DNA of 64,000 bases from positions 1-64,000 of the forward strand of contig NZ_JBGCCA010000031.1 of NCBI RefSeq assembly GCF_041261265.1. The letters are read 5' to 3'. Under the pieces are notes generated by a model. It searched no databases. It was not told where the DNA came from and saw only the letters and a program-made list of their open reading frames with translations. Origin of the DNA: Streptacidiphilus sp. MAP12-33 (GTDB lineage: Bacteria; Actinomycetota; Actinomycetes; Streptomycetales; Streptomycetaceae). This document shows positions 9,343 through 23,216 of the stretch, piece after piece (position 1 is the first letter of the stretch; every line of letters starts with the position of its first letter). The translations under genes and the position numbers were made by a program.

Positions 9343-9386
9343 GAGCCCCCTGTCGGGTTCGAACCGACGACCCCCGCTTTACAAGA
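9343..9386. repeat. attL of AICE-1, a 44-bp partial tRNA-Thr copy (T-arm to anticodon loop)
   Basis: 'gagccccctgtcgggttcgaaccgacgacccccgctttacaaga' is identical to 23142-23185. Confidence 0.85.
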
Positions 9387-9523: not shown

Positions 9524-9814
9524 CTACGAGTGGTCCAGCACCTGGGGACAGGTGAGGTCAATCCAGATCCATGGTTCGTGGTGCCACGTCCGTATCTCGC
9601 CGACGATCACTGAAATGACGCTCCCCACCGGCGGGAGTTCTTGCGCGAGTCGGCGCACCTCAGGCTCGCTGCCACGTCGGATGACGTCCATGGATGCGCC
9701 CACGGGCTCGAACCCGTGGATCTTCGCGGTGACACCCCAAGGCCAGTGGCCTGTGATCGTTGCTTCGACTTGAGCACCCTGCGCGAGCTCGCTCAGTGGG
9801 CGTTCGTCAGACAC
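9524..9814 (-). CDS. Hypothetical protein (96 aa), AICE-1 cargo
   Basis: Six-frame ORF with no recognisable motif. Confidence 0.35.
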   Translation of the reverse strand: MSDERPLSELAQGAQVEATITGHWPWGVTAKIHGFEPVGASMDVIRRGSEPEVRRLAQELPPVGSVISVIVGEIRTWHHEPWIWIDLTCPQVLDHS

Positions 9815-10058
9815 GACACCTCCTCTTGGCGCTCACTATAGGGAGCGGCTTTACAGACCGCTCCGCGATCCGGCGGGTCATCCACCCTGACCTGCGAGGA
9901 GTCGTCTTGCGCCCTACGTATCGGGGCTTCTGGTCCGTGACTGGTCCGGATCTTGAACGCCGGCGGCACTGGGTCCTGCATCACGCTCGACGAGGGAGCT
10001 GATCTCCGATCGTTGAAGTTAGTAGGCTCGCGTGCCAGTTGAGATCTAGGGGTGGGCC

Positions 10059-11249
10059 ATGAGGATCAGAGACCTGACGAGTGCCACTGCGGTGGAAAGG
10101 GCACTCGCTGAGTACAACGACTTGGGTGGGCAGCGTTTCCGCGACAAGCACAAGTTCGGCCCCTCGACGCAGTACTACCTCAGTCACGCTGACCTGCTGT
10201 ACGACGCCAAGGCGATCGCCGGCGTCGCTTACGGCTACCAGCATCGGACCAGCGGTCCGTTGTCAAACGACCAGTTCGATGGTGGCGAGGCGGCCACAAA
10301 CCCCGTACTGCGCGCCATGGGGTTCACGGTCCTCAACAGCCACACGGAGACCGTAGACGCAGAGCGGGAGTGGCGCCTGGCTGTGTGGCGGAATCTGCTC
10401 GGACGGCGGGACAGCTCCGGGCTGGTCACCGCGGACGCCATTCGCTCAGTAGGTGCATACGGCAACTACCGTGGCATCTGGACAGACAAAGCCCGTACCC
10501 AGAAGATCCATCCCGACGGCGTGACGATCGGACTCAAGCACACCGGCCAACACTACCCCGACGACCTGAACGAGAACGGAGCGCTGTACCACTACCCGGT
10601 CACACGGCAGCCAGGCCGTGACCTCGGTGAAGTCAACGCCACGAAGGCGGCCGCCACGCTGCGGCTTCCCCTGTTTGTGATCACCGAGCATGGCGACCTC
10701 CGAGGCGTACACCTTGCATGGGTAGAGGGCTGGGAGGACGAGAGCAGCCTGTTCCTGGTCAACTTCGGCGAGACCCCGCCCGTACAAGTCCTGGACCACG
10801 ACCGCTCAGAGGAGCAGCCGTTCCAGCTCGAAGGCAACAGACGCCGCCGACGGAACGGGACTGTGGTCACACGACCGGACCAGGCCCGATTCAAGCTCGA
10901 AGTGTTCCAGCGGTACGGTCCACACTGCCCCCTCTCGGGGATCGCGATTCCCCAGATGATCGAGGCAGCCCACCTCCGAGGCGACGCTGACGGCGGTACC
11001 TCCGACGCCCGCAACGGCCTGCCAATGAACGCGGCACTTCACAGGGCCTTTGACGCCCACCTCTTCGCCATCAACCCTGACACCCTGACCGCAGAGGCGC
11101 GCCCTGGAGGACCAAGCCTGGGAGCCATGGGCATCGTGCACCCAAAGCTTGCCCTGGACCGCCAGCCGCACCCAGAGGCCCTTCGGTGGCGCTACAACGA
11201 GTGGCTGCGCTGCACCGGCCGAGAAGCGGAAGTACCAGCCGACGAGTAG
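10059..11249 (+). CDS. HNH-family nuclease with N-terminal putative modified-DNA reader domain(s). Candidate type IV (modification-dependent) restriction enzyme
   Basis: The C-terminus 'CPLSGIAIPQMIEAAHLRGDADGGTSDARNGLPMNAALHRAFDAHLFAINPD' matches the HNH_2 / McrA-like nuclease motif (C..C, AAH, NGL, HxxFD). The upstream domains have no catalytic motif. The region has lower GC than the flanks. Confidence 0.7.
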   Translation: MRIRDLTSATAVERALAEYNDLGGQRFRDKHKFGPSTQYYLSHADLLYDAKAIAGVAYGYQHRTSGPLSNDQFDGGEAATNPVLRAMGFTVLNSHTETVDAEREWRLAVWRNLLGRRDSSGLVTADAIRSVGAYGNYRGIWTDKARTQKIHPDGVTIGLKHTGQHYPDDLNENGALYHYPVTRQPGRDLGEVNATKAAATLRLPLFVITEHGDLRGVHLAWVEGWEDESSLFLVNFGETPPVQVLDHDRSEEQPFQLEGNRRRRRNGTVVTRPDQARFKLEVFQRYGPHCPLSGIAIPQMIEAAHLRGDADGGTSDARNGLPMNAALHRAFDAHLFAINPDTLTAEARPGGPSLGAMGIVHPKLALDRQPHPEALRWRYNEWLRCTGREAEVPADE

Positions 11250-11667
11250 GCAGACTGGTTACGCCAGAAGCCCCGCTCCATTCGGCGCGGGGCTTCTGCG
11301 TTGGTTCGCTCGGCAAGGTTCAAACTGCAACCTTTGATCCGCAGCTCTTGCCGGACGAGTCATTCGTGGACAACCGCGCCTGTGGGGCGGCAGACTCCCC
11401 AGGCCATGCAGCAGCAACGTGAGTTGCTGTCCCTCACTGCTGTACGCGACGACTGCCGTCATACAGCGCAGTCCGTGATCTGAAGTCACTCACGTGCTTC
11501 AGCGAGCGACTCCGATGGCAGCAATCGAGACTCATCCTCTACAGCCGCGATGTAGTCGCCCAGGGTCAAGTCCCCGGCCGCAAGCGAGTAAGCCAGCAAG
11601 CTGACTGGCTGCTCAGCCATGCCATTCCCCATCCTTCGGCGTACTCGTCGAGCAAACGCAACGCACG

Positions 11668-12054
11668 CTAGTGGCTGCTGTAGTTGATCGTCAGAATCGC
11701 CACTACCCGGTGTGCGTCCCCGTCGGCCTCAACGCGGTACTCATCATTGAACTGGTAATCGATGCGGGCCGCACCACTTACCTCGTAGTGAGTTGTCCGC
11801 GACCACCCCGGCCCCTGCGGCTTGCCGGCCTTTCCTCGCAGGATGCAGGTCGATGCAACAGGTGCCGGATTGCCAGGATCGTGGGACACGTGATCCCAGA
11901 ACTGTTGAGCCTGCTGCAACCCAACCCGATCCGCCAACTGCTCATACAAGCGCTTGAACCGCCTGTGAACCAAGACGCGATATTTAGGCTGCTCGTCTGG
12001 CTTTCCACCAGGACGCCTGGCCGGCTCATGCGGGTCGTAGGCGCTGCTACTCAT
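11668..12054 (-). CDS. YoeB/Txe-like (RelE/ParE superfamily) toxin
   Basis: 'RGKAGKPQGPGWSRTTHYEVSGAARIDYQF...HRVVAILTINYSSH' resembles the YoeB 'GKGKPEPLKHNLSGFWSRRI...' core. It overlaps the upstream antitoxin ORF by 8 bp. Confidence 0.55.
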   Translation of the reverse strand: MSSSAYDPHEPARRPGGKPDEQPKYRVLVHRRFKRLYEQLADRVGLQQAQQFWDHVSHDPGNPAPVASTCILRGKAGKPQGPGWSRTTHYEVSGAARIDYQFNDEYRVEADGDAHRVVAILTINYSSH

Positions 12055-12511
12055 CTTCGGGCCGAGGCGCGGTCACGAAGTCTGCGGGGTCGTGTTGGCC
12101 GAGCAGGATACTGCGCCGCAGAGGGTCTTCCAGCTGTCGGGCGGTGGTCCGCCAAGCCTGCAGACAGTCCTCTAGGACGCTGACGTGACCGTCTGCATGA
12201 GCTGCCGTGAGGGCCGCCTGGAGCTCCGCAAGGAACTCCCGAAGATCCTCATCGTCGAAGACTCGAAGCCATGCCAGGTCACCGAGAGCACTGACATCTC
12301 TGCCTGCTCCGCGGCTGATGATTGCCTCCAGGCGCACGGCTGCTTGCGACCAATCCGCCAGGGTCTCTAGCAGGTGCAGGCGACTCTCAGGCAACATGAC
12401 CAGGCTAGTGCCATCCTTGTCGCGGACCCTCGCGAGGCCGCTACGCGCCGCTGTCAGGAGCTCAACTCGCTTGGTAGCTAGATCGCTGGCTTGAAAGATG
12501 GTGTCAGTCAT
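12047..12511 (-). CDS. Phd/YefM-family antitoxin (N-terminal domain) with an extended C-terminus
   Basis: The N-terminus 'MTDTIFQASDLATKRVELLTAARSGLARVRDKDGTSLVMLPESR' is a typical YefM/Phd fold signature. It sits immediately upstream of, and overlaps, the toxin gene. Confidence 0.6.
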   Translation of the reverse strand: MTDTIFQASDLATKRVELLTAARSGLARVRDKDGTSLVMLPESRLHLLETLADWSQAAVRLEAIISRGAGRDVSALGDLAWLRVFDDEDLREFLAELQAALTAAHADGHVSVLEDCLQAWRTTARQLEDPLRRSILLGQHDPADFVTAPRPEDE

Positions 12512-12550
12512 AGCTCCTCCTGTTTGCTAGGATCCTACGTACGATCGTGA

Positions 12551-13876
12551 TTGTCAACGTGGCATCCGGGTGACCCGGCCAAGGTCAGGAGGTGGCGCAA
12601 CTTGAGCGGGCCAAGGCCGTTTGACGCGCGCGAGGCACTGATGTGCGAGACCGACAAGAACCCCGGCACCTCATGGCGCACAGTAAGCCTCGTCACTAGC
12701 CTCAGACACCTCCTCGCCCGCAACCAAGAGGCAGACAACACCTCCCAGGAATCTCGGGCAGATGCCCTCCGCGCGATAGCCAGCGAGCTGACACGCCGCG
12801 GCATCGATGCCGACTCCCTGATTCGCTACGGGCTCTGCATTGAGGTTTTCTCCCCACTTCTCGGTGCCGCGATCCTGAAGAACATAATCCCCAAAAAAGA
12901 CCTGGGGAGGATCCTCGGACTTAGCCCCGAAGACCTGGAAGCTTGGCGCGATGTTCTCGACATTCAAGCGTCGGTCGCGCCAGCGCCAGGTGATGATGAC
13001 TTCGCAGGGTTCGTCCAAGTCACCATCGAGTCGTTTGGGCCGCGAGTGATTACATGGATCCTCTACGCCCCCGTAGATGACTTGATCACCTTGCGCCCGC
13101 CGCAGCCGGCAGAGCTAGAAGAGGCTCTGAATTTTGCCGACCCGTCCGCAGAGCTCATAAAAGAGTATCGCTGGGTTGTCGATCGCTTCTCAGAGACATT
13201 CGTGCGGGATTGGTCGGAGCATTCCCTTCGACAGGAGTACCTGTGGATCCAAGGGCGCGCCCTGCCCCCCTGCCCTCCCGCGCTGATGGGGGATCGGCTG
13301 GTCACTCGCAGCGAACTGGAAGCTGAGATAGCGCGCCGCGCCGTCCTGCCGCCCACCGAGCCGTCGCCGTTGGAGTCAGTCGACTCCGGGGGGAGGCTCG
13401 TCATCGAAATGGAGAACCACGCGCGCCTGCTGCTCTCCGAGGGCCGTTATCGCGAGGCAGCTGCCCTCTTTGAGTTTGCCGAGAAACGGCGCCCCGAGGA
13501 CCCTTCGATTCACAACGACATGGGGTTCTGTCTCATTCCAGTAAACTCTCGCGAGGCCCTCAAGCATCTCAATTCTGCCGCAGCACTCGGATACCATCCC
13601 GCAGCAATCAATACATACAACATCATGTGCTGCCAGTTCGACGGGCGGGACTTTCACTCCCTCGTTGGCACGGCCGGAAAATATTGGGATACCCAGCTGG
13701 AGAACCGGGCCACCCCCGGAACTTTGTGGCGCTGGAGCAGCAGGGACTCATGGCAACTGGTGAATACAAAGGACGCCAGAAAGGCGATCGCCACGCTGGC
13801 TCACCAGGTTTGCACCACCGAAGGCTGGAAGGAGCTCGAACAGCTTTGGTTTGATCGGCTTGAAGAATTGGCGTGA
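12551..13876 (+). CDS. Hypothetical protein with a C-terminal TPR-like repeat, lower-GC cargo of unknown function. The start is uncertain (possible TTG at 12602 with an AGGAGG RBS at 12587-12592, or ATG at 12641)
   Basis: Six-frame ORF of 441 aa containing 'EGRYREAAALFEFAEKRRPEDPSIHNDMGFCLI' (TPR-like). GC is about 55-58% against a backbone above 70%. It is divergent from the TA pair. Confidence 0.55.
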   Translation: MSTWHPGDPAKVRRWRNLSGPRPFDAREALMCETDKNPGTSWRTVSLVTSLRHLLARNQEADNTSQESRADALRAIASELTRRGIDADSLIRYGLCIEVFSPLLGAAILKNIIPKKDLGRILGLSPEDLEAWRDVLDIQASVAPAPGDDDFAGFVQVTIESFGPRVITWILYAPVDDLITLRPPQPAELEEALNFADPSAELIKEYRWVVDRFSETFVRDWSEHSLRQEYLWIQGRALPPCPPALMGDRLVTRSELEAEIARRAVLPPTEPSPLESVDSGGRLVIEMENHARLLLSEGRYREAAALFEFAEKRRPEDPSIHNDMGFCLIPVNSREALKHLNSAAALGYHPAAINTYNIMCCQFDGRDFHSLVGTAGKYWDTQLENRATPGTLWRWSSRDSWQLVNTKDARKAIATLAHQVCTTEGWKELEQLWFDRLEELA

Positions 13877-14406
13877 TTGCTCTACCGGGCCGACCAGTCC
13901 CGGAGCCGTGTTTCTGCGCGTCGGTGCATTCCCACCACTCCCCCCCTGACATCCCGTCCGCCGTCGACCCACACGCACGTGGAGCGGGCTTGCCCCCTGG
14001 GGTCCAGATGGAGCGCGCCACTGTACGAACGATCTGGACCCCAGGGGGCAAGTCTGCTCGGCTCTGCCTGGGTCGATGGCGGTCGGGATGGCAGTCCCCT
14101 CCCCAGCCCCTACGGCCTGCACCCTCGGCACGGCCCGGTCATCCCGGTGCCGGCTGATCCCCTGTCGTCCAGACAGTCAGTCCGACTCTTGCCCCTGCCT
14201 CCGCTTGCGGTCCGCCCCGCCGGGCGGCGCGGGGCGAAGACAGGAGCGCGCCCGAGCGGGGGCGGGCCGCGCCGCGCAAGCGGCGTGGTCCCTTGATTCA
14301 GTAGAGAAAGTCATCACCACTCCCCTCTCCACCTCATCTCACCTCGAACGATTCACGTCAACCACGCTGCCGCGCTTGGCGCGCTCGCCCCGTACTGCTC
14401 TTCTCG

Positions 14407-14829
14407 TCAGGCCTCGTCGTCCGCAGAGCGGACCCAAGCCAACTGCGCCTCGCTTAGCGGCGGATCGAACCCTTCGGGGAACATCAGCATCCGTTGGTCC
14501 GGCCAGATGTTCACAGGCCCGTGCCCTTCGCAGTGGTGGGCAATGAGGTGGGGCCCTTCCCCGCATTGCTCGTGTATGTACGGACGTTCGTGGGTCTGAC
14601 AGATGGACCAGTAGAGCGAACACTCGTGGTCATCGGCATCCGGCGGGTCGGCGAACCCAGGGTCGCGGACAATGACCGTCACCCGCTCCTGCTTGTTGAA
14701 GCGCGGGATGGGTCCAGGGTCGCACCACAGCAAACGAGGGGGCAGCACCTCAGCTCGCCTGCTCCTGATCGAGGAGCACTCGCCCGTCGTGAGTTCGGAC
14801 CAGGGGCGCATAGTCATCGCGCAGCGCAT
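14407..14829 (-). CDS. Hypothetical Cys/His-rich protein, overlapping and downstream of the NUDIX gene
   Basis: Six-frame ORF. It is co-directional with the nudix gene and overlaps it by 80 bp, so its start is probably internal. Confidence 0.35.
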   Translation of the reverse strand: MRCAMTMRPWSELTTGECSSIRSRRAEVLPPRLLWCDPGPIPRFNKQERVTVIVRDPGFADPPDADDHECSLYWSICQTHERPYIHEQCGEGPHLIAHHCEGHGPVNIWPDQRMLMFPEGFDPPLSEAQLAWVRSADDEA

Positions 14830-15196
14830 CGTGGATGCGGACGGCGTAGACCTGGCCCATGCTGGCGGTGACTTCCTCCGGGGTCAGCCACTCAACCGCG
14901 GCTGTCTCATCCGAGAGCTGTTCGTGCCCGCTTTCAGGGTGGCAGCGGAAGACCAGAGCGACGACGCCCCTCGCGAGGTTCTTGTAGACGCCGGTCAGAC
15001 GCTCCACGCCGACCTTGATGCCGGTCTCCTCGTAAACCTCTCGGCGAACGCCGTCCTCGATCGTCTCCGTGAGTTCCAGCACCCCGCCCGGCGGCTCCCA
15101 GGTGGCGTTATCGGCGCGCTGAATGGCAAGGATGCGGCCATCCTCACGGACGACGACTCCGGCGACGGACACGGAGTGCTGCGGCGTGGTACTCAT
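14750..15196 (-). CDS. NUDIX hydrolase (MutT-like), a typical AICE gene
   Basis: The Nudix box 'GGVLELTETIEDGVRREVYEETGI' is present. Confidence 0.8.
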   Translation of the reverse strand: MSTTPQHSVSVAGVVVREDGRILAIQRADNATWEPPGGVLELTETIEDGVRREVYEETGIKVGVERLTGVYKNLARGVVALVFRCHPESGHEQLSDETAAVEWLTPEEVTASMGQVYAVRIHDALRDDYAPLVRTHDGRVLLDQEQAS

Positions 15197-15197
15197 G

Positions 15198-15211
15198 TAC
15201 AGGAGACTAGG
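15198..15211. promoter_or_regulatory. Putative KorSA operator 'ctcaTGTACAggag' in the nudix/kor divergent promoter region
   Basis: A near-palindrome centred on TGTACA. Its exact reverse complement occurs at 16097-16110. Confidence 0.5.
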
Positions 15212-15225
15212 GGACGGTAAGGACT

Positions 15226-16008
15226 ATGGGGAACGTAGACGCGGCCTCGGCTTCGGGCGCACCGAAGTACTTGCAGATCGCAGAGGACCTGGCCGCGCAG
15301 ATCCGTTCAGGCGGGCTGGCTCCGGGGGACCCGGTGCCGAGTGAAGCTGAGCTGATGGCCCGGTACAACTCTGCGTCGGGCACCGTGCGAAAGGCCGTGG
15401 CTGAGCTGCGGACTCAGCAGCTCGTGGAAACTCACCACGGGAAGGGCTCGTTCGTGCGCCGGCGTCCGCCGGTTCAGCGGAAGTCCTCGGATCGCTTCCG
15501 GCGTTCACACCGACAGGCGGGCAAGGCTGCCTACATCGCGGAGGTCGAACAGTCGGGCGGAGTCCCCTCGGTGGCGGTCCTCCATGTCGGCGCCGCGCCG
15601 GCTCCAGAGGGCATCGCCGCGCGGCTCGGGGTGGAGCCTGGCACGAAGGTGCTCGCACGTCGCCGGCGCTACTTCTTGGATGGCACCCCGACCGAAGAGG
15701 CCACGTCCTACCTGCCGTGGGATGTGGTCAAGGACATCCCAGAGATGTTCCAGGAGAACCCCGGCGGCGGTGGAATCTATGCCCGACTTGAAGAACACGG
15801 CTACCGGCTCGCCGACTTCACCGAGACTGTGCGGGCACGGCTGGCCACCAAGGCTGAGGTGTCGGCGCTTGCCCTGAGCCCTGGCGCGCCGGTGCTGCAT
15901 CTGATCCGTGATGCCCGCACGGTGGACGGGCGGGTGGTCGAGGTCTGCGACACGCTCATGTCCGCTGACCAGTTCGTTCTTGATTATCGCTTCGCCGCTG
16001 GCGACTGA
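15226..16008 (+). CDS. GntR-family transcriptional regulator, KorSA-like (kil-override) repressor
   Basis: It has an N-terminal winged HTH 'APGDPVPSEAELMARYNSASGTVRKAVAELRTQQLVETHHGKGSFV' and a UTRA-like C-terminus. Palindromic operators flank the gene. Confidence 0.8.
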   Translation: MGNVDAASASGAPKYLQIAEDLAAQIRSGGLAPGDPVPSEAELMARYNSASGTVRKAVAELRTQQLVETHHGKGSFVRRRPPVQRKSSDRFRRSHRQAGKAAYIAEVEQSGGVPSVAVLHVGAAPAPEGIAARLGVEPGTKVLARRRRYFLDGTPTEEATSYLPWDVVKDIPEMFQENPGGGGIYARLEEHGYRLADFTETVRARLATKAEVSALALSPGAPVLHLIRDARTVDGRVVEVCDTLMSADQFVLDYRFAAGD

Positions 16009-16062
16009 CGGAGCCTCAACCTCCGTATCCCGTCCCGAGATTCTTTCCGGGGCGGGTTTACT

Positions 16063-16110
16063 TATGTACAGGAGTAGGGCACTCTCTAATCATCGCTCCT
16101 GTACATGAGT
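16063..16110. promoter_or_regulatory. Inverted pair of the same operator motif (cttatgtacaggag ... ctcctgtacatgag) upstream of the pra-position gene and traSA
   Basis: Two copies in inverted orientation are separated by 20 bp, immediately upstream of the 16145 ATG. Confidence 0.5.
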
Positions 16111-16144
16111 GCAGGAGAAAGCCTCATCTAGAGGAGTCGGCTCA

Positions 16145-16489
16145 ATGCCTGCCTTCAAGATCGACCTTTCGACCGCAGTCGTCTTCGTCGCCGTCGGACC
16201 GGCGCCCAAGCTGAAGAACAAGAAGACCGGTGAGCTCGCCACCGACGCGGTGACCGGCGCCGTGATGCACACCGTGGGTCTGCTGGTCTCGGACGAGGGC
16301 GACGGGAACCTGCTGACCGTGAGCGTCCCGGAGTCGGGCCTGCCGCCCGAGGGCATCGCCGTCGGCACCATGGTCGCGGTGACCGGCCTCAAGGCCCGCG
16401 ACTGGGAGAACGAGTTCAACGGCGAGAAGCGGCACGGGATCGCGTTCCGCGCCATGGCCGTCACCCCGTTCGCGCCGGCGAAGGGCTGA
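16145..16489 (+). CDS. Hypothetical protein in the pra position (possible OB-fold / ssDNA-binding-like)
   Basis: The ORF begins 'MPAFKIDLSTAVVFVAV'. The tail 'WENEFNGEKRHGIAFRAMAVTP' is reminiscent of SSB OB-folds. It lies between kor and tra, as pra does in pSAM2. Confidence 0.4.
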   Translation: MPAFKIDLSTAVVFVAVGPAPKLKNKKTGELATDAVTGAVMHTVGLLVSDEGDGNLLTVSVPESGLPPEGIAVGTMVAVTGLKARDWENEFNGEKRHGIAFRAMAVTPFAPAKG

Positions 16490-16494
16490 TCGCG

Positions 16495-17880
16495 GTGAAC
16501 GACCTCCTCGCTCTCATCGAGACCGGCGCCCCGTTAGCCACCGTCGCGGGCGGTGCCCTGTACACCCGCAGCCACGCCCCGCGCGCGTACTGGTCCGCGG
16601 TCGGCCTGCCGGCCACGCTGGTCCGCATGCGCCGGGACTGGGCGGAGACCATGGACGCCTGCGGGCTCGCCACCGAGCCGCCGCTGTGGCGGATCCTGGC
16701 TACCCAGCGCGGTGACAACGCCGTGCGGCGCCCGGTCCCGCCAAAGGTCCGCATGGTACAGCCCTCGACCATGGGCGTCCGGGTCCGCATCCGGCTCGCC
16801 AAGGGGATGACCACGGAGACCGTGTCCAAGGCGGCTGAGGCTCTGCGGCACGCCTGGCAGGTCCACGCGGTCTACGTGACCGAGGTCCGCCCCGGCGTCG
16901 TCGACCTCCGCATCATGGGCTTCGACGTGCTGGCGAACGTCGTGGTCCCGTCCCGGATCACCGCGAAGAACACCGGCCCCGTTCGGGTTCCGGTCGCCCT
17001 GGCCTCCGACGGCCGGCCGTACGTCCGCGACTACCGCGCGGTTCCGCACGGCCTGACCCTTGGGGCGAACCAGTCGGGCAAGTCCATGTTCGCCCGCAAC
17101 CTGGTCCACGGCCTGGCCTCTCAGCCGGTCGCCCTGTGCGGGATCGACTGCAAGAAGGGCGTCGAACAAGCCCCCTTCGGCCCGCGGCTGTCGGCGCTTG
17201 CGATTGACCCCGACCTTGCCCTTGATCTGCTGCGGGTCCTGGTCAACGTCGAGATGGCCCGCCGCTACGACCTGATCCGCGACCACCTCGGCATCCCCGG
17301 CACAGTCGGCGACGGCGAGATAGCCGCCGACGTGTGGGGCCTGCCCGAGCCTCTGCGCCCCGTGCCGCTGGTGCTGATCGTGGACGAGATCGCCGAACTG
17401 CTGCTGTCGACGAAGAAGAACGACCCCCGCCGAGACGAGACCATCACGCTCCTGGTCCGCTTCGCCCAGCTCGCCCGCGCCGCCGGCATGTACCTGGAAG
17501 TCATGGGCCAGCGCTTCGGTGCCGACCTCGGCCCCGGCGCCACCCTGCTGCGCTCCCAACTCACCAACCGCGTCGTCCACCGCGTTAACGACACCGAATC
17601 CGCCCGCATGGGCCTCGGCGACGTCTCCGATGAGGCGATGCACGCGGCCACCGCGCTCAGCCCCTACCTGCCCGGCTGCGCGATCGTCGGCGACACCTCC
17701 GGGCAGTGGCAGCGCATCCGCACCCCGTACCGCTCCCTGTCGGAGACCGCCAGGCACTGCGCCGCGCACGCGCACCTCGTGCCGGACCTGCCCGCGCTGA
17801 ACCCGTTCCGCCCCGTCCCGCCGGCCGACGCTGTGCCCGAGGACGCGCCGGTGTACATCCCGGCCCCCGCCGCCTCGTAG
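16495..17880 (+). CDS. FtsK/SpoIIIE-family dsDNA translocase, TraSA-like conjugal transfer protein
   Basis: Walker A 'LGANQSGKSMFARN' and Walker B 'LVLIVDEIAELL' are present, in a typical AICE position. Confidence 0.8.
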   Translation: MNDLLALIETGAPLATVAGGALYTRSHAPRAYWSAVGLPATLVRMRRDWAETMDACGLATEPPLWRILATQRGDNAVRRPVPPKVRMVQPSTMGVRVRIRLAKGMTTETVSKAAEALRHAWQVHAVYVTEVRPGVVDLRIMGFDVLANVVVPSRITAKNTGPVRVPVALASDGRPYVRDYRAVPHGLTLGANQSGKSMFARNLVHGLASQPVALCGIDCKKGVEQAPFGPRLSALAIDPDLALDLLRVLVNVEMARRYDLIRDHLGIPGTVGDGEIAADVWGLPEPLRPVPLVLIVDEIAELLLSTKKNDPRRDETITLLVRFAQLARAAGMYLEVMGQRFGADLGPGATLLRSQLTNRVVHRVNDTESARMGLGDVSDEAMHAATALSPYLPGCAIVGDTSGQWQRIRTPYRSLSETARHCAAHAHLVPDLPALNPFRPVPPADAVPEDAPVYIPAPAAS

Positions 17881-17965
17881 CGGTCGAGAACGCCCCTGGT
17901 CGGCGCCCCTGCGCGCCAAGTCCCTACCCGAGCCATGCCCGAAACCACTTCGAAAGGACCCTCCC

Positions 17966-18259
17966 GTGACCGTCCACCTGGGCTTCTACGCCGCCGCCGA
18001 CACCACGGTCAACCTGCACGACTACGGCACCGAGCGGACCCCGATCCTCTCCCTCGGCAACATCGCCGAGCACCTGACCATCAGCGCGCTCGACAGCATC
18101 CCGCTGACCGACCACCTGACTTTCGCCCGGCACCTCGCCGCCGCCGCGGCCGACTACCTCGCCGCGCTGGAGATGTACGCCGCCCAGTCCGCGCCGATCA
18201 AGCCCCGGCGCCGCAACCGCCGTCGCCGTCCGCGCGCCGCCGCGAAGACAACGGCCTGA
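17966..18259 (+). CDS. Spd-like small hypothetical protein
   Basis: ORF in the spread-gene region with an Arg-rich C-terminus. Confidence 0.4.
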   Translation: MTVHLGFYAAADTTVNLHDYGTERTPILSLGNIAEHLTISALDSIPLTDHLTFARHLAAAAADYLAALEMYAAQSAPIKPRRRNRRRRPRAAAKTTA

Positions 18260-18261
18260 CT

Positions 18262-18432
18262 GTGGCGACCCGACGAAAGCCCGCCGCCAAAGCACCACCT
18301 GTGTGCCCCTCCTGCGCCGGTACCGGACAGGTCGCCGTCACCGTCCGGGTCGGCCGCAAGCGCCGCAACGCCGGCCAGCAGGAAGGCATCTGCCTCGGCT
18401 GCTTCGGCTCCGGCACCGCCGACCCCGAGTAG
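18262..18432 (+). CDS. Small CxxCxGxG zinc-ribbon protein (56 aa)
   Basis: GTG start directly after the preceding stop. The sequence is 'CPSCAGTGQVAV...CLGCFGSGTA'. Confidence 0.35.
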   Translation: MATRRKPAAKAPPVCPSCAGTGQVAVTVRVGRKRRNAGQQEGICLGCFGSGTADPE

Positions 18433-18508
18433 TCCGATCGCCGGAGTCGGGCGGCCGGCCAAACGCCCCGCTCGCCTCCGGTCCCAACTGTGAACGGAGA
18501 AAGCTCCG

Positions 18509-19189
18509 ATGAACCGCCGTCTCCTACCCCGCGTGGATGCGGTGCTGGTGCAGGCCGTGATCGCCGCCGCGCTGTCCTTCGCCCACCTCCACGACGTGGC
18601 GATGGCCGCCGGGCAGACCGGCTGGAAGGCATGGGCCTACCCCATCTCGGTGGATCTGCTCTTGGTCGCTGCCTGGCGCCGACTGCGGCAGAACCGCTCC
18701 GCCCGACTGGCCTGGGCCTGGTTCACCATCGCCCTCGCTGCATCCCTCGGTGCCAACGTCGCCACCGCCGGATTCCTCGACATGCACCACGCCCCGGCCT
18801 GGCTGCGGATGCTCGTCGCCGGCTGGCCCGCCGCCGCGTTCCTCGGCGGCACCCTCCTCGCCCACGATCGCGCCCCGCACACCGAACCCCCGACCCCGCC
18901 CGTCGTCCCGGCACCGGCGCCCGTTCTCGACGTCGAGCGCGAAGACCCCCCGGTCTACCTCGACGAACCGGCCCCGGAACTGCCCGAGCCCGAGCCGGCA
19001 CCGGCGCTCCCGCCGGCTCCAGCGATGACCGTCCCGGCCGCGCTGCTCAACCACGCCCGCTCGATCGCTGCCGACCACCAGACCCGGACCGGTGCCCCGA
19101 TCGACCCGGACGCGCTGCGCACCCGGCTCGGTGTCCCGCCCCAGCTCGCTACCGCGATCCTCGCCCAGCTCGAAGGAGTCCCGGCATGA
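18509..19189 (+). CDS. SpdB-like membrane protein (DUF2637-like N-terminus)
   Basis: The N-terminus 'LVQAVIAAALSFAHLHDVAMAAGQTGWKAWAYPISVDLLLVAAW' resembles the 42924 gene of AICE-2. It has a Pro-rich linker. Confidence 0.6.
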   Translation: MNRRLLPRVDAVLVQAVIAAALSFAHLHDVAMAAGQTGWKAWAYPISVDLLLVAAWRRLRQNRSARLAWAWFTIALAASLGANVATAGFLDMHHAPAWLRMLVAGWPAAAFLGGTLLAHDRAPHTEPPTPPVVPAPAPVLDVEREDPPVYLDEPAPELPEPEPAPALPPAPAMTVPAALLNHARSIAADHQTRTGAPIDPDALRTRLGVPPQLATAILAQLEGVPA

Positions 19190-19377
19190 CCATCCAGCTC
19201 CCCCTGGTCGTCGTCCTCGGCCTGATCGTCTGGCTGCTCGTCAAGGTCATGCGCCTGCGGCTGTGGATCGTCGCCGTGGTCCTGCTCTTCGGCTTCTACC
19301 TCGCTCACACCATGTTTGCCCCGGTGATCAACGACACCACCAAGACCGGCGTCGACGTCGTCAACCAGCACCGCTGA
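19186..19377 (+). CDS. Small membrane protein (63 aa), translationally coupled (ATGA overlap)
   Basis: 'MTIQLPLVVVLGLIVWLLVKVMRLRLWIVAVVLLFGFYLAH'. Confidence 0.45.
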   Translation: MTIQLPLVVVLGLIVWLLVKVMRLRLWIVAVVLLFGFYLAHTMFAPVINDTTKTGVDVVNQHR

Positions 19378-19398
19378 CCTGGAAGGAAACGATCCGCC

Positions 19399-19743
19399 AT
19401 GGGAATCCGCCCGACCTTCGCCCCCGGCTCGAACCAGCCCTACGTCATCACGCAAACCCCGCCCCCGGCCCCGCTCCCGGTACCGGTCCAGCAGCCGACG
19501 GCTCCGGCCCCGGCCAACTACCAGCAGCAGCCGGCCACGTACTACGCCCCGCCCGCCCCGGTCATCGTCCGAGCGGCCCGACCCTCGGTCGCCCCGTACG
19601 TCGCCGGCGGCATCGGCGCCGTCGTCGCCGTGATCGTCGCCGGTGCCATCGCGATCGGCATCCTCCTCGCCCTCGCCGTCGCCTCGGTCGCCGTCAAGGG
19701 CCTGGTCAACAGCCTCAAGGAGCACGGCCCCACCCGCGACTAG
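19399..19743 (+). CDS. Pro-rich membrane protein (Spd-like)
   Basis: It has a Pro/Gln-rich N-terminus and a C-terminal TM 'GGIGAVVAVIVAGAIAIGILLALAVASVAV'. Confidence 0.5.
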   Translation: MGIRPTFAPGSNQPYVITQTPPPAPLPVPVQQPTAPAPANYQQQPATYYAPPAPVIVRAARPSVAPYVAGGIGAVVAVIVAGAIAIGILLALAVASVAVKGLVNSLKEHGPTRD

Positions 19744-19837
19744 CTACACCTCGGGGCGACCGATCCCGGCCAAGGAATCACGGTCGCCCCGAGCCCTCCC
19801 AGCCCCGATCAACTCACAGGACAGGAGTCCCACCATC

Positions 19838-20032
19838 ATGCCCGCGAACACCAACTCCGTGCGCATCTGCTCCAACTGCGACGGCTTCCCCGTCGCCCAC
19901 GTCTCCATCGGCTCCCGCCAGCCGGACGGCACGCTGCCCACGCTGCCTGCGGTCTGCCTCCACTGCTCCGGCACCGGCCACGTCCCCGCCACCACGGCCA
20001 AGACCCCGGCCCTCACCCCGGCCGGTCGGTGA
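19838..20032 (+). CDS. Small CxxC...CxxCxGxG zinc-ribbon protein
   Basis: 'CSNCDGFPV...CLHCSGTGHV', a paralogue of the 18262 gene. Confidence 0.4.
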   Translation: MPANTNSVRICSNCDGFPVAHVSIGSRQPDGTLPTLPAVCLHCSGTGHVPATTAKTPALTPAGR

Positions 20033-20036
20033 CGTC

Positions 20037-20207
20037 ATGGGCCTCCTCGACTGGCGCGACTCCAAGCACTGGTCCAACACCCCCGACGACTGCGTGATCT
20101 GCGACAAGCCCACCAACCTGCGCTCCGACCGCGGGAAGCCCGTCCACAAGGTCTGCGCGGAGGACTGGAACGAGCAGCACGCCCGCCCCGAGGGTGAGCG
20201 CTCCTGA
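20037..20207 (+). CDS. Small Cys-containing protein (56 aa)
   Basis: 'CVICDKP...HKVCAEDW'. Its stop overlaps the rep start (TGATG). Confidence 0.35.
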   Translation: MGLLDWRDSKHWSNTPDDCVICDKPTNLRSDRGKPVHKVCAEDWNEQHARPEGERS

Positions 20208-21673
20208 TGGCGTTGACGCTGAACCCGTTCACGGACCCCACACTCGCCGGTGGGGCCCGTGGCCGGCACTTCGACGACGTGACGGACGACCTCGCGCGCC
20301 TGTCCGCCCGCGGTGACCTGCCCCGACTGGTTGAGCAGATCCGCCGCACTGGTGGCTGCGCGAACCCGATCAACCTGTGGGGCTCCAAGACCATCCGCCA
20401 CCTGCCCACCGGCCTCGCGCTCAGCGAGTACAGCACCGCCGACGAACCGGGCGGACGCCTCAAGGTCGCCTGCGGCAACCGCCGGGCCACCCGGTGCCCC
20501 ACCTGCTCGGCCACCTACGCCGCAGACACCTACCACCTCATCCGCGCCGGCCTTGTCGGCGACCACACCAAGGACGTCCCCGCCACGGTCCGAGACTGCC
20601 CGCGGGTCTTCGCCACCCTCACGGCCCCATCGTTCGGCCCCGTCCACAACCGCCCCGACACCGGACGCTGCCGCTGCGGCCGACAGCACGCCAAGACCGA
20701 CCCCATGTTGGGCTCGCCGCTCGACCCCGAGCGATACGACTACGCGCACGCGGTCCTGTGGAACAACTGGGCTTCCGAGCTGTGGCGCCGCTTCACCATC
20801 TACCTGCGCCGCGAGCTCGCGAAGGCGTCCGGCCTCACCCGCCGCGAGTTCGACGACACGGTCAAGCTCGCCTTCGGAAAGGTCGCCGAGTACCAACGCC
20901 GCGGCGCCGTGCACTTCCACGCCGTCATCCGCCTCGACGGCGCCGGCCCGCCCGGAGCCACCCCGCCCGCCTGGGCCACGGTCTCACTGCTCCACCGCGC
21001 GATCCGGTCCGCCGCCCGGTCGGTCACAGTTCCGCTCGATGCCGCCGACCCCCACCCCGCCCGAGTCCTGCGCTGGGGCGATCAAATCGACGTCCGCCCC
21101 ATCCGGGCCTTCGGCGACGGCTCCCAGATCACCGAACAGGCCGTGGCCTCCTACGTCGCCAAGTACGCCACGAAGGCCGCCGAGGTCACCGACAGCGTCG
21201 ATCGCCGACTCCACTCCCTCGGCGCCCTGGCCGACTACGACTTGCCCGACCACACCCGGCGTCTGATCGAGACCTGCTGGGAACTCAACGACGCCTACCC
21301 GGAACGGCTGCTCGCGCACTGGTCCCACATGCTCGGCTTCCGCGGGCACTTCTCGTCCAAGTCCCCCCGCTACTCCACCACCCTCGGCGCCTTACGCCAG
21401 GCACGCGCCGACTACCGCGCCCAACAGACCCACGAGGAACTGCGCGAACGGCTCCTCGCCGCCGGCCTGCCCGACCTGGACGACATGGAACACGACGGCG
21501 AAACCCTCGTCCTCGCCCACTGGATCTACGCCGGCCAAGGCCACACCCCCGGCGAATCCCTGCTCGCCGCCACCATCGCCGAACAGATCGAACACAACCG
21601 CACCGCCGCCAGAGAGGAGCGCCAATCGCTGCTCCCGAGCCGAGAGGAGGGACAGGCATGGACCGCCTGCTGA
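20207..21673 (+). CDS. RepSA-like replication initiator protein (rolling-circle type, pSAM2 family)
   Basis: The N-terminus 'CANPINLWGSKTIRHLPTGLALSEY...CGNRRATRCPTCSATYAADTYHLIRAGLVG' is typical of AICE RepSA. Confidence 0.7.
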   Translation: MALTLNPFTDPTLAGGARGRHFDDVTDDLARLSARGDLPRLVEQIRRTGGCANPINLWGSKTIRHLPTGLALSEYSTADEPGGRLKVACGNRRATRCPTCSATYAADTYHLIRAGLVGDHTKDVPATVRDCPRVFATLTAPSFGPVHNRPDTGRCRCGRQHAKTDPMLGSPLDPERYDYAHAVLWNNWASELWRRFTIYLRRELAKASGLTRREFDDTVKLAFGKVAEYQRRGAVHFHAVIRLDGAGPPGATPPAWATVSLLHRAIRSAARSVTVPLDAADPHPARVLRWGDQIDVRPIRAFGDGSQITEQAVASYVAKYATKAAEVTDSVDRRLHSLGALADYDLPDHTRRLIETCWELNDAYPERLLAHWSHMLGFRGHFSSKSPRYSTTLGALRQARADYRAQQTHEELRERLLAAGLPDLDDMEHDGETLVLAHWIYAGQGHTPGESLLAATIAEQIEHNRTAAREERQSLLPSREEGQAWTAC

Positions 21674-21879
21674 CAGTGCGTGAGGTGGCCGAACGACTCG
21701 GCACCTGGGAAACGAGCAAGGAGCGCTTTCCCCGCCGGCTGATCGAGGAACGCCGCATCGAGTTCGTCCACGTGGGCCGCCACGTCCGGATCAAGGAAAG
21801 CGTCCTGGCTGCCTACGTCGAGGCCAACACCGTGCGCCCCGTGGTTCGTCGGCGTCGGTTCGGGGCGGTGGCTGCCTGA
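21658..21879 (+). CDS. xis: Excisionase (Xis), helix-turn-helix
   Basis: 'MDRLLTVREVAERLGTWETSKERFPRRLIEERRIEFVHVGRHVRIKESVL'. It overlaps the rep end and is coupled to the int start. Confidence 0.75.
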   Translation: MDRLLTVREVAERLGTWETSKERFPRRLIEERRIEFVHVGRHVRIKESVLAAYVEANTVRPVVRRRRFGAVAA

Positions 21880-23045
21880 TGGCCAACAGCAAAGGCGCAC
21901 GCCGCCGGTTCGGCTCGGTCCGGCAGCTCCCGTCTGGCCGGTGGCAGATCCGCTACCCCGATCCCCTCACGGGGCTCCTGCGGACTGGTGAGCAGACCTA
22001 CGCGACCAAGACCGATGCTGAGATCGCGCTGACACTGATCGAGGCCGACATCACTCGGAATCAGTGGGTTGACCCGGACTCCGGAAAGACCAACTTCGCC
22101 GTCTTCGCGGACGCCTGGTTCCGGGACCGCAAGCTGGAGGAGAGGACGCGGGAGAGGTACGAGGGTGTCATCCGTCTGCACATCCGGCCGCAGCTCGGTG
22201 GGTTGACGCTCTCCGAGATCACTCCCGCACGTGTGCGCTCCTGGCGGACGGTGCTCCTTGCTGAGGGCGTTGGTGAGCCGACCGTGGTCAAGGCATATCA
22301 GCTTCTTCGCGCCATCATGAACACCGCTGTGGATGACGAGTTGATCCAGCGCAATCCGTGTCGGATCAAGGGGGCTGACCGCTACGACGTGCCCGAGCGT
22401 CCGACCCTGACGATCCAGGAGGTGTACGCGGTGGCGGGGGCGATCCAACCGCAGTGGCGCGCGCTGATCCTGCTGGCGGCCTTCACCACGCTGCGCTTCG
22501 GGGAGTTCGCCGCGCTCCGCCGGCGGGATGTGGATCTGGAAGCGCGCGTCTTGTGGGTCCGACGCAATCAGGCTGAGCTGAGCAGCGGAAAGCTGATCGA
22601 GAAGGCACCCAAGAGTCGCGCCGGCTTCCGCCCGGTCGCGTTCCCCGTCGACATCGTCCCGGACCTTGAGCACCACCTCACGATGCACGCGAGCAAGAAG
22701 GACGACGGGCCATTCTTCGTCGGTCCGCGGGGTGGCCGGCTGCGGCGGAGCAACTTCGGAGACGACTGGGCTGATGCCTGTAAGGCCGCCAAGGTCACCG
22801 TGGACGCTCACTTCCACGATCTCCGCCACACCGGGAACACCCTAGCGTCGCAGAACGGGGCGAGCACCCGAGAGCTCATGATCCGCATGGGTCACAGCAC
22901 CCCGCGCGCGGCGTTGATCTACCAGCACATGACCAGTGACCGCGATCGTGTGATCGCCGACCGGATGGGCGAAGCGGTCCGCAAGGCGCTCGGCAAGGAG
23001 GACCCTCCGGAGCCTTCTGGCACGCCAGTGGCACGGCCCGAGTAG
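21879..23045 (+). CDS. int: Tyrosine recombinase / integrase (Int) of AICE-1
   Basis: It has an N-terminal arm-binding-like 'RFGSVRQLPSGRWQIRYPDPLTG', a catalytic region 'HDLRHTGNTLASQNGASTRELMIRMGHSTPRAALIYQH' (R...HxxR...Y), and sits adjacent to the tRNA att site. Confidence 0.9.
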   Translation: MANSKGARRRFGSVRQLPSGRWQIRYPDPLTGLLRTGEQTYATKTDAEIALTLIEADITRNQWVDPDSGKTNFAVFADAWFRDRKLEERTRERYEGVIRLHIRPQLGGLTLSEITPARVRSWRTVLLAEGVGEPTVVKAYQLLRAIMNTAVDDELIQRNPCRIKGADRYDVPERPTLTIQEVYAVAGAIQPQWRALILLAAFTTLRFGEFAALRRRDVDLEARVLWVRRNQAELSSGKLIEKAPKSRAGFRPVAFPVDIVPDLEHHLTMHASKKDDGPFFVGPRGGRLRRSNFGDDWADACKAAKVTVDAHFHDLRHTGNTLASQNGASTRELMIRMGHSTPRAALIYQHMTSDRDRVIADRMGEAVRKALGKEDPPEPSGTPVARPE

Positions 23046-23139: not shown

Positions 23140-23216
23140 TGGAGCCCCCTGTCGGGTTCGAACCGACGACCCCCGCTTTACAAGAGCGGTGCTCTGGCCA
23201 GCTGAGCTAAGGAGGC
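23140..23216 (-). tRNA. tRNA-Thr (anticodon UGU), 77 nt with an encoded CCA
   Basis: The manual fold 'GCCTCCT TA GCTC AGCTGGCCA GAGC A CCGCT CTTGTAA AGCGG GGGTC GTCGG TTCGAAC CCGAC AGGGGGC T CCA' has all stems paired. Confidence 0.85.
23142..23185. repeat. attR of AICE-1, a 44-bp core inside the intact tRNA-Thr gene
   Basis: Identical to 9343-9386. Confidence 0.85.

What the first reader, a model, noticed from the sequence alone, without database searches (positions are those of the whole stretch)
10059..11249. AICE-1 cargo: an HNH_2-type nuclease with N-terminal reader-like domains, a candidate modification-dependent (type IV) restriction enzyme
The C-terminal approximately 60 aa carry the full McrA-like HNH_2 signature (C-x2-C, EAAH, NGL, HRAFD). 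The approximately 330 aa upstream have no nuclease motif and resemble base-modification reader folds (PUA/EVE- or SRA-like) only loosely. It sits in a lower-GC island, next to a TA pair and an unknown protein, on a conjugative element. That context is typical for mobile defence cargo that would restrict incoming modified DNA.
Basis: partly seen in the sequence, partly recalled or inferred. Interest (0 to 1): 0.6.

Follow-up and report, generated by a model that had tools for sequence, protein, structure and literature searches.

The report
Predicted modified-DNA-cutting restriction enzyme on AICE
This gene very probably encodes a one-protein restriction enzyme that reads a chemically modified DNA base with an SRA-like pocket domain and cuts with an HNH nuclease; it rides as cargo on a small conjugative element, and it is a plausible but fairly ordinary, untested member of a known class.

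Summary
The ORF is real: 10059-11249 (+), 396 aa, 100% identical to an NCBI 'putative restriction endonuclease' of Streptacidiphilus sp. MAP12-33.

It has three modules:
- Residues 1-94 are a ScoMcrA-type head domain (Pfam PF26345 ScoMcrA_N; PDB 5ZMM).
- Residues about 273-345 are an HNH_2 nuclease with H305, N319 and H328 conserved.

This lineage lost the family's zinc ligands, as did the active enzyme VcaM4I.

The gene is monocistronic and has no adjacent DNA methyltransferase and no conserved partner gene. It lies in a low-GC cargo end of a pSAM2-type AICE bounded by a perfect 44-nt repeat in tRNA-Thr. Homologues occur on other AICEs, in prophages and as solitary insertions.

Best reading: a type IV modification-dependent endonuclease, most likely for 5mC/5hmC. 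It is a new member of a known kind, of modest interest.

The parts
10059..11249 (+). Gene for the 396-aa head / SRA-like / HNH_2 endonuclease. It is monocistronic: the upstream neighbour is divergent and the downstream neighbour is convergent.
   Evidence: ORF. It is 100% identical to NCBI MEY9875981.1/WP_370118566.1, 'putative restriction endonuclease', and has more than 240 homologues.
10059..10340 (+). Residues 1-94: ScoMcrA-type N-terminal head domain (PF26345 ScoMcrA_N). Its function is unknown even in ScoMcrA.
   Evidence: phmmer to 5zmm_A residues 11-93, E 1.1e-8. Profile search E 5.8e-17. PADLOC mREase_IV matches residues 11-94. The Pfam name is given.
10344..10814 (+). Residues 96-252: linker helix plus a divergent SRA-fold (PUA-superfamily) domain, the presumed modified-base reader. 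The conserved block is H161-x-G163-x-x-Y166-x-D168-[D/E]169 ... Y177-H178-Y179-P180-x-T182, followed by D188, E191 and K196.
10875..11093 (+). Residues 273-345: HNH_2 beta-beta-alpha-Me nuclease domain. It carries H305 (general base), N319 and H328 (metal ligand), and is a zinc-less variant (C293S, C324N, H327L relative to the family consensus).
   Evidence: Pfam PF13391 matches residues 290-339. The alignment to VcaM4I 6yex puts H224/N241/D250 opposite H305/N319/H328. Column counts.
11094..11246 (+). Residues 346-396: conserved C-terminal extension (P370, W377, W382; helix 372-385). It is a possible dimerisation element.
   Evidence: Invariant columns. Secondary structure. The role is inferred.
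9343..9386 (.). Distal att repeat of the integrated element.
   Evidence: Perfect 44-nt direct repeat with 23142-23185.
23142..23185 (.). att repeat inside tRNA-Thr(TGT) (23140-23216, minus strand), next to the integrase gene.
14750..23045 (.). pSAM2-type AICE backbone: NUDIX 14750-15196 (-), GntR/UTRA 15226-16008 (+), FtsK/SpoIIIE Tra 16495-17880 (+), DUF2637 18509-19189 (+), RepSA 20207-21673 (+), tyrosine integrase 21879-23045 (+).
   Evidence: Pfam hits.
11668..13876 (.). Other cargo next to the nuclease: a 128-aa ORF (-) that overlaps a DUF6247 ORF (12047-12511, -), and a 441-aa ORF (12551-13876, +) with a weak TPR match. None of these co-occurs with the nuclease in other genomes.

Best explanation
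The gene encodes a self-contained type IV (modification-dependent) restriction endonuclease built as head - reader - nuclease.

Proposed mechanism:
- The SRA-fold middle domain binds duplex DNA and flips a modified base into a pocket. The base is most likely 5-methyl- or 5-hydroxymethyl-cytosine. The pocket would be lined by the conserved Tyr166 / Asp168-Asp169 / Tyr177-His178-Tyr179 block.
- Binding positions or releases the C-terminal HNH_2 domains, which probably dimerise as in TagI, VcaM4I and ScoMcrA.
- The HNH_2 domains then nick or cut nearby DNA with one divalent metal ion. H305 acts as general base and H328 as metal ligand.
- The host's own unmodified DNA is spared, so no partner methyltransferase is needed.

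As low-GC cargo at the far end of a pSAM2-type AICE, the enzyme would protect the host, and so the element, from phages or incoming DNA that carry that modification.

Shown: the domain composition, the intact catalytic motif, the fold, the mobile-element context, and the lack of a partner gene. Inferred: base flipping, dimerisation, the identity of the modification, and the defence role.
For: - The head domain is homologous to that of the type IV enzyme ScoMcrA. PADLOC's type IV model also hits it.
- Foldseek's best PDB match is the SRA-HNH enzyme TagI, aligned across both domains in the same order (E 2e-7).
- The most conserved residues of the middle domain, across 107 representatives clustered at 50% identity, lie on the strand-loop-strand where SRA domains hold the flipped base. 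Y166 is kept in 97%, D168 in 97%, Y177 in 98%, Y179 in 96% and T182 in 99%. For comparison, TagI uses Tyr55/Asp58/Tyr67 and UHRF1 uses Tyr466/Asp469/Tyr478 (PMC6212794).
- The HNH residues H305/N319/H328 are conserved. They align with the mutagenesis-validated H224/N241/D250 of VcaM4I, which has the same zinc-less C-x-x-T-G form.
- This reader domain is almost always fused to an HNH nuclease: 116 of 148 representatives.
- A Sinorhizobium protein has the same head and HNH_2 but a DUF3427 reader in the middle, which shows that the middle module is swappable.
- No DNA methyltransferase was found next to the gene or anywhere on the element. No partner gene is conserved across 60 loci.
- The gene recurs on AICEs (L046, L055, L065), in prophages (L009-L012 and L014) and as a solitary insertion (L068).
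Against: - No sequence-level link to SRA could be made. Pfam SAD_SRA gives no hit, and only 1 of 148 relatives gives E 0.006. hhalign against the UHRF1 SRA gives probability 0.4%. A family HMM scores UHRF1 no better than shuffled sequences.
- The correspondence of pocket residues is a manual, topology-guided inference. Model coordinates could not be superposed.
- No member of this family has been characterised, as far as I could find.
- ScoA3V (Sco5330) is a PUA-like-HNH enzyme described only from actinomycetes. It shows 6mA-stimulated nicking rather than 5mC cutting (PMC6765204). If it is related, the cytosine prediction would be wrong.
- The head domain has no known function.
Confidence: 0.65

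Rival explanations
1. The architecture is the same, but the divergent SRA-like domain reads something other than 5mC/5hmC. Candidates are N6-methyladenine (as reported for the actinomycete PUA-like-HNH nickase ScoA3V), phosphorothioate-independent backbone features, or a hypermodified phage base. The enzyme may mainly nick.
For:
- Lutz et al. 2019 describe ScoA3V as a PUA-superfamily domain 'of a different clade' fused to HNH. Its homologues are found only in Streptomyces, Nocardiopsis and Micromonospora, and it shows 6mA-stimulated nicking. That taxonomic range resembles the head-containing branch here.
- The nearly invariant H178 between the two tyrosines has no counterpart in the UHRF1 or TagI motifs.
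Against: - The best structural matches are cytosine-modification readers, not YTH, ASCH or EVE domains.
- A conserved carboxylate pair follows the first pocket tyrosine. This is the feature that selects cytosine in SRA domains.
- No S. coelicolor A3(2) protein appeared by name among the 240 listed relatives or the 64 genome loci. This is weak evidence, because the lists were truncated and the species representative may lack the islet.
Confidence: 0.17
2. The protein is a selfish or housekeeping nuclease of the mobile element rather than a defence enzyme. It could be a phage-type HNH that assists terminase or DNA packaging, a homing or nicking enzyme, or a modification-independent toxic nuclease that stabilises the element.
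For: - In five Streptomyces genomes a homologue 70-72% identical lies immediately upstream of an HTH protein, a large terminase and an SPP1-type portal (L009-L012 and L014). That is the classical position of packaging HNH proteins.
- In the window it sits beside a possible addiction pair.
- The isolated HNH domain of VcaM4I is a non-specific toxic nuclease.
Against: - Packaging HNH proteins are small and lack reader domains. The terminase in those prophages is of the Terminase_6N (T4-like) family.
- The same gene is found on AICEs with no packaging machinery, and as a lone insertion between an acetyltransferase gene and tig-clpP.
- No isolated phage in INPHARED carries a full-length copy.
- The reader domain is under strong conservation.
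Confidence: 0.1
3. The protein is a catalytically weak or inactive DNA-binding protein (a modification sensor or regulator), because it has lost the structural zinc site of its family.
For: Three of the four presumed zinc ligands of the family consensus are replaced: C293S, C324N and H327L.
Against: - The catalytic H-N-H triad, D316, R318, G320 and D332 are all retained and are invariant among the 36 aligned head-carrying homologues.
- VcaM4I has the same zinc-less form and is an active, phage-restricting enzyme.
Confidence: 0.05

Closest known systems
SRA-HNH type IV endonucleases (TagI, ScoA3IV/Sco5333, TbiR51I)
   Different: The TagI SRA is recognisable by sequence (E 1e-20 to UHRF1), whereas this one is not. 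TagI and ScoA3IV use a classical zinc-containing HNH (CxxC/CxxD), whereas this protein has a zinc-less HNH_2. This protein also has an extra 94-aa head domain.
ScoMcrA (Sco4631; head-SBD-SRA-HNH; PDB 5ZMM)
   Same: The N-terminal head domain is homologous (about 40% identity over 83 residues). It is an actinomycete type IV enzyme on a laterally acquired island, with an SRA-like domain before the HNH.
   Different: There is no sulfur-binding domain, so phosphorothioate recognition of the ScoMcrA kind is not expected. NCBIfam PT-DNA_restrict scores only 20 bits, over the HNH part, against a cut-off of 180. ScoMcrA's HNH has a four-Cys zinc finger, and this protein's does not.
VcaM4I (EVE-HNH; PDB 6YEX)
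   Same: It is the closest solved nuclease domain by sequence (profile E 1.9e-4). It has the same C-x-x-[S/T]-G zinc-less HNH_2 form, and the catalytic residues align. It has a PUA-superfamily reader followed by a linker and an HNH.
   Different: The VcaM4I reader is an EVE domain, whereas this one is closest to SRA. VcaM4I has no head domain.
ScoA3V (Sco5330), a PUA-like-HNH 6mA-stimulated nickase (Lutz et al. 2019)
   Same: It is an actinomycete-restricted fusion of a weakly PUA-like domain with an HNH, and it has no partner methyltransferase.
   Different: The relationship could not be tested because the sequence could not be retrieved with these tools. Its reported preference is 6mA, not 5mC.
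Head-DUF3427-HNH_2 protein of Sinorhizobium meliloti pSymB (UIJ95456.1)
   Same: It has the same head and the same HNH_2 domain (29% identity overall, E 5e-31).
   Different: Its middle reader is DUF3427, not the SRA-like domain.

Membership tests
Pfam HNH_2 (PF13391) nucleases | Profile match above the gathering score | tested here: met
   39.6 bits against a cut-off of 21, residues 290-339. All 36 homologues match.
Pfam HNH_2 (PF13391) nucleases | [quoted passage not shown] | tested here: met
   H305, N319 and H328 are invariant in 36 homologues and kept in 86-93% of 107 family representatives. They align to VcaM4I H224/N241/D250.
SRA-HNH type IV endonucleases (TagI / ScoA3IV) | SRA-fold domain N-terminal to the HNH | tested here: met
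SRA-HNH type IV endonucleases (TagI / ScoA3IV) | Sequence membership of the SAD/SRA family (PF02182) | tested here: not met
   No hit at E up to 10. Only 1 of 148 relatives hits, at E 0.006. hhalign and HMM tests against the UHRF1 SRA are negative. Precomputed Pfam lists only PF13391 and PF26345.
SRA-HNH type IV endonucleases (TagI / ScoA3IV) | Flipped-base pocket: two aromatic walls plus a carboxylate that reads the cytosine Watson-Crick edge | tested here: inconclusive
   A conserved Y166-x-D168-[D/E]169 ... Y177-H-Y179-P-x-T182 block lies at the topologically equivalent strand-loop-strand. Residue equivalence could not be checked by superposition.
SRA-HNH type IV endonucleases (TagI / ScoA3IV) | Structural zinc site in the HNH (CxxC/CxxD plus a second Cys pair) | tested here: not met
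   Only C290 remains. Positions 293, 324 and 327 are S, N and L.
SRA-HNH type IV endonucleases (TagI / ScoA3IV) | Cleavage dependent on 5mC/5hmC | not testable with these tools
   This needs enzymology or in-vivo restriction assays.
ScoMcrA-like PT-dependent endonucleases | N-terminal head domain (ScoMcrA_N) | tested here: met
ScoMcrA-like PT-dependent endonucleases | Sulfur-binding domain (SBD) | tested here: not met
Type IV (modification-dependent) restriction systems in general | Stand-alone nuclease with no cognate DNA methyltransferase | tested here: met
   No methyltransferase was detected among the ORFs of the element that were scanned. None lies next to homologues in L065, L066 or L068. 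No neighbour is conserved in 60 loci.
pSAM2-type AICE (context) | Tyrosine integrase, RepSA, FtsK-like Tra, GntR (KorSA-like), NUDIX (Pif-like), and att duplication in a tRNA gene | tested here: met
Type II toxin-antitoxin pair (neighbours 11668-12511) | Recognisable toxin and antitoxin families | tested here: inconclusive
   Only DUF6247 hits, for the upstream gene (27.9 bits against a cut-off of 26.9). The 128-aa partner has no hit in Pfam, NCBIfam, PADLOC or the PDB. The 8-nt gene overlap is the only other support.

The most novel reading that the evidence does not exclude
The divergent SRA-like domain defines a large, uncharacterised reader clade: 683 clusters at 50% identity, almost always fused to HNH. 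Its ligand may not be 5mC/5hmC. It could be 6mA, as in ScoA3V, or a hypermodified base of actinophages. The ScoMcrA_N head would then be a portable module of a 'head - swappable reader - HNH' scaffold (SBD+SRA, DUF3427 or SRA-like) with a regulatory or second-site DNA-binding role. If so, the family would offer a new modification specificity and a handle on the unexplained head domain.
Probability: 0.2. Interest if true: 0.55.

Novelty: new member of a known kind. Interest (0 to 1): 0.3.

Why it matters
If the prediction holds, this is one more example of type IV restriction carried as AICE or prophage cargo in actinomycetes. That cargo is part of why Streptomyces-like hosts reject methylated DNA from E. 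coli, which is a practical obstacle in genetic engineering. The family is large and untested. Its reader is an SRA fold that no sequence model currently recognises, so annotation pipelines call these proteins only 'HNH endonuclease'. A characterised member could give a new modification-dependent enzyme for epigenetic mapping, and could help assign a role to the ScoMcrA head domain. None of this would overturn current understanding.

Tried and rejected
- Sequence-level assignment of residues 96-252 failed in every test. These were Pfam at E up to 10, a PDB profile search, hhalign against the verified UHRF1 SRA sequence, and a family HMM against UHRF1 with 999 shuffled decoys.
- An SBD, and so phosphorothioate reading, was rejected.
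- I tried to establish whether ScoA3V (Sco5330) belongs to this family. No supplementary text is held for the paper and no other paper mentions the enzyme. It did not appear by name in the protein lists or among the 64 genome loci. The S. coelicoflavus homologue lies on an AICE, not in the Sco5330 islet. The question stays open.
- SCO4213 was considered as a characterised relative. It is Mrr-like, so it is unrelated.
- A conserved partner gene or operon was searched for in 60 loci, and none was found.
- Promoter and terminator scans around the gene found nothing.
- The Foldseek search of AFDB50 was unavailable.
- The BFVD and INPHARED searches found only isolated HNH domains in phages.
- The TA identity of the neighbours could not be supported.

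Full report
**Observation.** The window has an ATG-initiated ORF at 10059..11249 on the + strand, encoding 396 aa. A purine-rich stretch (AGGGGTGGG) lies just upstream of the ATG. The gene is real. Its product is 100% identical to NCBI protein MEY9875981.1/WP_370118566.1, 'putative restriction endonuclease [Streptacidiphilus sp. MAP12-33]'. It has more than 240 homologues, mostly full-length among the 120 listed, in Streptomyces, Kitasatospora, Micromonospora, Nonomuraea, Amycolatopsis and relatives. Pfam HNH_2 matches residues 290-339. The motifs EAAH (302-305), NGL (319-321) and HRAFD (328-332) are present. The sequence is C290-P-L-S293. Comparison with 107 family representatives shows that this lineage has replaced three of the four likely zinc ligands of the family consensus: C293S, C324N and H327L. 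The nuclease motif is followed by about 57 more residues, so it is not at the extreme C-terminus.

**Context.** GC falls to 0.61-0.64 between 10 and 14 kb, against 0.70-0.79 around it. A perfect 44-nt direct repeat lies at 9343-9386 and 23142-23185, and the second copy is inside a tRNA-Thr(TGT) gene. Between the repeats lie these genes:
- a tyrosine integrase (21879-23045)
- a pSAM2-type replication initiator, RepSA (20207-21673; E 1.5e-146)
- a DUF2637 protein
- an FtsK/SpoIIIE transfer protein (16495-17880)
- a GntR/UTRA regulator (15226-16008)
- a NUDIX protein (14750-15196)

This is a 13.8-kb pSAM2-type AICE, and the nuclease gene is at its integrase-distal, low-GC cargo end. The gene is monocistronic: the upstream neighbour (9524-9814) is on the other strand and the downstream neighbour is convergent. 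The supposed TA pair could not be confirmed. It consists of a DUF6247 gene and an overlapping 128-aa gene that has no hit in any library. No DNA methyltransferase was detected on the element.

**Anatomy of the protein.**
- *Head, residues 11-94.* These match the head domain of ScoMcrA (PDB 5ZMM), with E 1.1e-8 for the single sequence and 5.8e-17 for a 36-sequence profile. The precomputed Pfam family PF26345 is named ScoMcrA_N, and PADLOC's type IV model hits the same stretch. In ScoMcrA this head is small, flexibly attached and of unknown function (PMC6224610).
- *Nuclease, residues about 273-345.* The profile alignment to VcaM4I (6YEX) places H305, N319 and H328 opposite H224, N241 and D250. 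Mutagenesis showed these to be the active-site residues of that enzyme. VcaM4I has the same zinc-less C-x-x-T-G form and is an active, phage-restricting enzyme, so the missing CxxC does not argue against activity.
- *Linker and tail.* A low-confidence arginine-rich linker (about 258-270) joins reader and nuclease. A conserved C-terminal tail (P370, W377, W382) follows the nuclease.

**How far the SRA call goes.** Every sequence-based test of SRA membership failed:
- Pfam SAD_SRA gives no hit for this protein or its 36 homologues.
- Only one of 148 distant relatives gives a weak hit (E 0.006).
- hhalign of the family alignment against the UHRF1 SRA sequence gives 0.4% probability. That sequence was verified residue by residue against the PDB.
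- A family HMM scores UHRF1 no better than shuffled copies.

By contrast, the TagI SRA is recognisable from UHRF1 at E 1e-20. So this is a divergent clade of the fold, not a member of the curated SRA sequence family.

The conservation pattern is still suggestive. Across 107 representatives clustered at 50% identity, the best-conserved residues of the domain are:
- H161 (93%) and G163 (97%)
- Y166 (97%) and D168 (97%)
- position 169, which is Asp or Glu in 102 of 107
- Y177 (98%), H178 (93%), Y179 (96%), P180 (99%) and T182 (99%)

These lie on the strand-loop-strand that holds the flipped base in SRA domains. UHRF1 uses Y466/D469/Y478-T479 there and TagI uses Y55/D58/Y67-T68. The carboxylate is what selects cytosine over thymine and purines (PMC6212794). 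The residue-by-residue correspondence is my inference. I could not superpose coordinates.

**The family.** A profile of the middle domain finds 683 clusters (50% identity) at E up to 1e-3, and 254 at E up to 1e-30. Of the 148 best, 97 carry HNH_2, 17 carry classical HNH and 2 carry HNH_5. Two architectures dominate. One is a headless form of about 290-310 aa (reader plus HNH), widespread in metagenomes and in Thermoleophilia, Chloroflexota and Acidobacteriota MAGs. A Sinorhizobium pSymB protein has the same head and HNH_2 but a DUF3427 domain in the middle. Head and nuclease therefore form a scaffold into which different reader modules are inserted. This is what one expects if the middle domain is the specificity module of a modification-dependent enzyme.

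**Genomic behaviour.** Among 64 loci from species-representative genomes, none of the window's neighbouring cargo genes travels with the nuclease, and no other neighbour is conserved. The contexts found were:
- other pSAM2-type AICEs, at the same cargo position: S. coelicoflavus L065 (GntR-NUDIX, FtsK, SpdB, RepSA), and L046 and L055
- prophages, just upstream of an HTH protein, a large terminase and an SPP1-type portal: L009-L012 and L014
- another integrative element in S. noursei
- a lone insertion between an acetyltransferase gene and tig-clpP-clpX in Actinacidiphila reveromycinica

No DNA methyltransferase is adjacent in any of the annotated contexts (L065, L066, L068). A mobile, single-gene unit with no partner methyltransferase fits a type IV enzyme. 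The authors of the PUA-HNH screen used the same argument (PMC6765204).

**Mechanism proposed.** The following steps are inferred from homologues. The protein dimerises through its HNH domains, as TagI, VcaM4I and ScoMcrA do. Each SRA-like domain scans DNA and flips a modified cytosine into the Tyr/Asp pocket. Binding tethers or de-represses the nuclease pair through the flexible basic linker. The nuclease then nicks or cuts nearby with a single metal ion, using H305 as base and H328 as ligand. Unmodified host DNA is spared. I put about 0.65 on 'modification-dependent endonuclease working this way'. Within that, I put roughly 0.45 on 5mC/5hmC specifically.

**Rivals.**
- *A different ligand.* The main rival keeps the architecture but changes the ligand. 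Lutz et al. characterised ScoA3V (Sco5330), an actinomycete-restricted fusion of a weakly PUA-like domain 'of a different clade' with HNH. It shows 6mA-stimulated nicking. I could not obtain its sequence, so its kinship with this family is untested.
- *A packaging or homing role.* The position next to terminase genes in five prophages suggests this. It is contradicted by the reader domain, by the non-phage contexts and by the absence of full-length copies in isolated phages.
- *An inactive sensor.* This is unlikely, given the intact active site and the VcaM4I precedent.

**Comparison and novelty.** Functionally the protein looks like an SRA-HNH type IV enzyme. By membership it fails two features of that family, SAD_SRA sequence membership and the zinc-binding HNH. 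It also lacks the SBD that defines ScoMcrA-type phosphorothioate enzymes. It is best described as a mosaic: a ScoMcrA head, a divergent SRA-fold reader and a VcaM4I-type HNH_2. This particular combination appears uncharacterised, and public annotation calls it only 'HNH endonuclease'. It still belongs squarely to the known class of modular PUA-superfamily-HNH modification-dependent endonucleases. Interest is modest.

Noticed in passing
window 52171-53367 (+) and 40897-41100 (-); GC dips at 39-41 kb and 51-53 kb: There is a second tyrosine-integrase homologue (27% identical to the AICE integrase, E 1e-31) and a second GntR-like stretch, each near a low-GC patch. Together they suggest another integrated element in the window.
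   Followed up: no
L009-L012 and L014, about 10001-15550: In five Streptomyces genomes a homologue 70-72% identical to the nuclease sits inside a prophage, directly upstream of an HTH (small-terminase-like) gene, a Terminase_6N large terminase and an SPP1-type portal.
   Followed up: partly
L070 3995-5134 (Sinorhizobium meliloti pSymB, UIJ95456.1): This protein has the same ScoMcrA-type head and HNH_2 nuclease but a DUF3427 domain in place of the SRA-like domain. It lies next to IS elements and a RecQ helicase. It is evidence for reader-module swapping on a common scaffold.
   Followed up: partly
window 10926-11075 (residues 290-339): The window protein and its actinomycete relatives have lost the family's CxxC and the second Cys/His pair (C293S, C324N, H327L), giving a zinc-less HNH_2 like that of VcaM4I. 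84 of 107 family representatives keep Cys at position 293.
   Followed up: yes
window 7602-8471 (-), tandem repeats 8164-8289: An ORF just outside the element encodes a His/Gly-rich protein (runs of GHGG). It contains four degenerate 30-nt tandem repeats.
   Followed up: no
window 11668-12511 (-): Two overlapping ORFs were proposed as a TA pair. The upstream one barely passes DUF6247. The 128-aa downstream one has no hit in Pfam, NCBIfam, PADLOC or the PDB. Neither accompanies the nuclease in other genomes.
   Followed up: partly
L043 10001-10931 (Kitasatospora sp. NPDC058115): The best segment is 91% identical to the nuclease gene, but the match spans only 931 nt for residues 1-394. This suggests a deleted or frameshifted copy.
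   Followed up: no
L068 10001-11203 (Actinacidiphila reveromycinica): The homologue is a solitary insertion between an Eis-like acetyltransferase gene and the tig-clpP1-clpP2-clpX housekeeping cluster. No other mobile-element genes lie within 10 kb.
   Followed up: no
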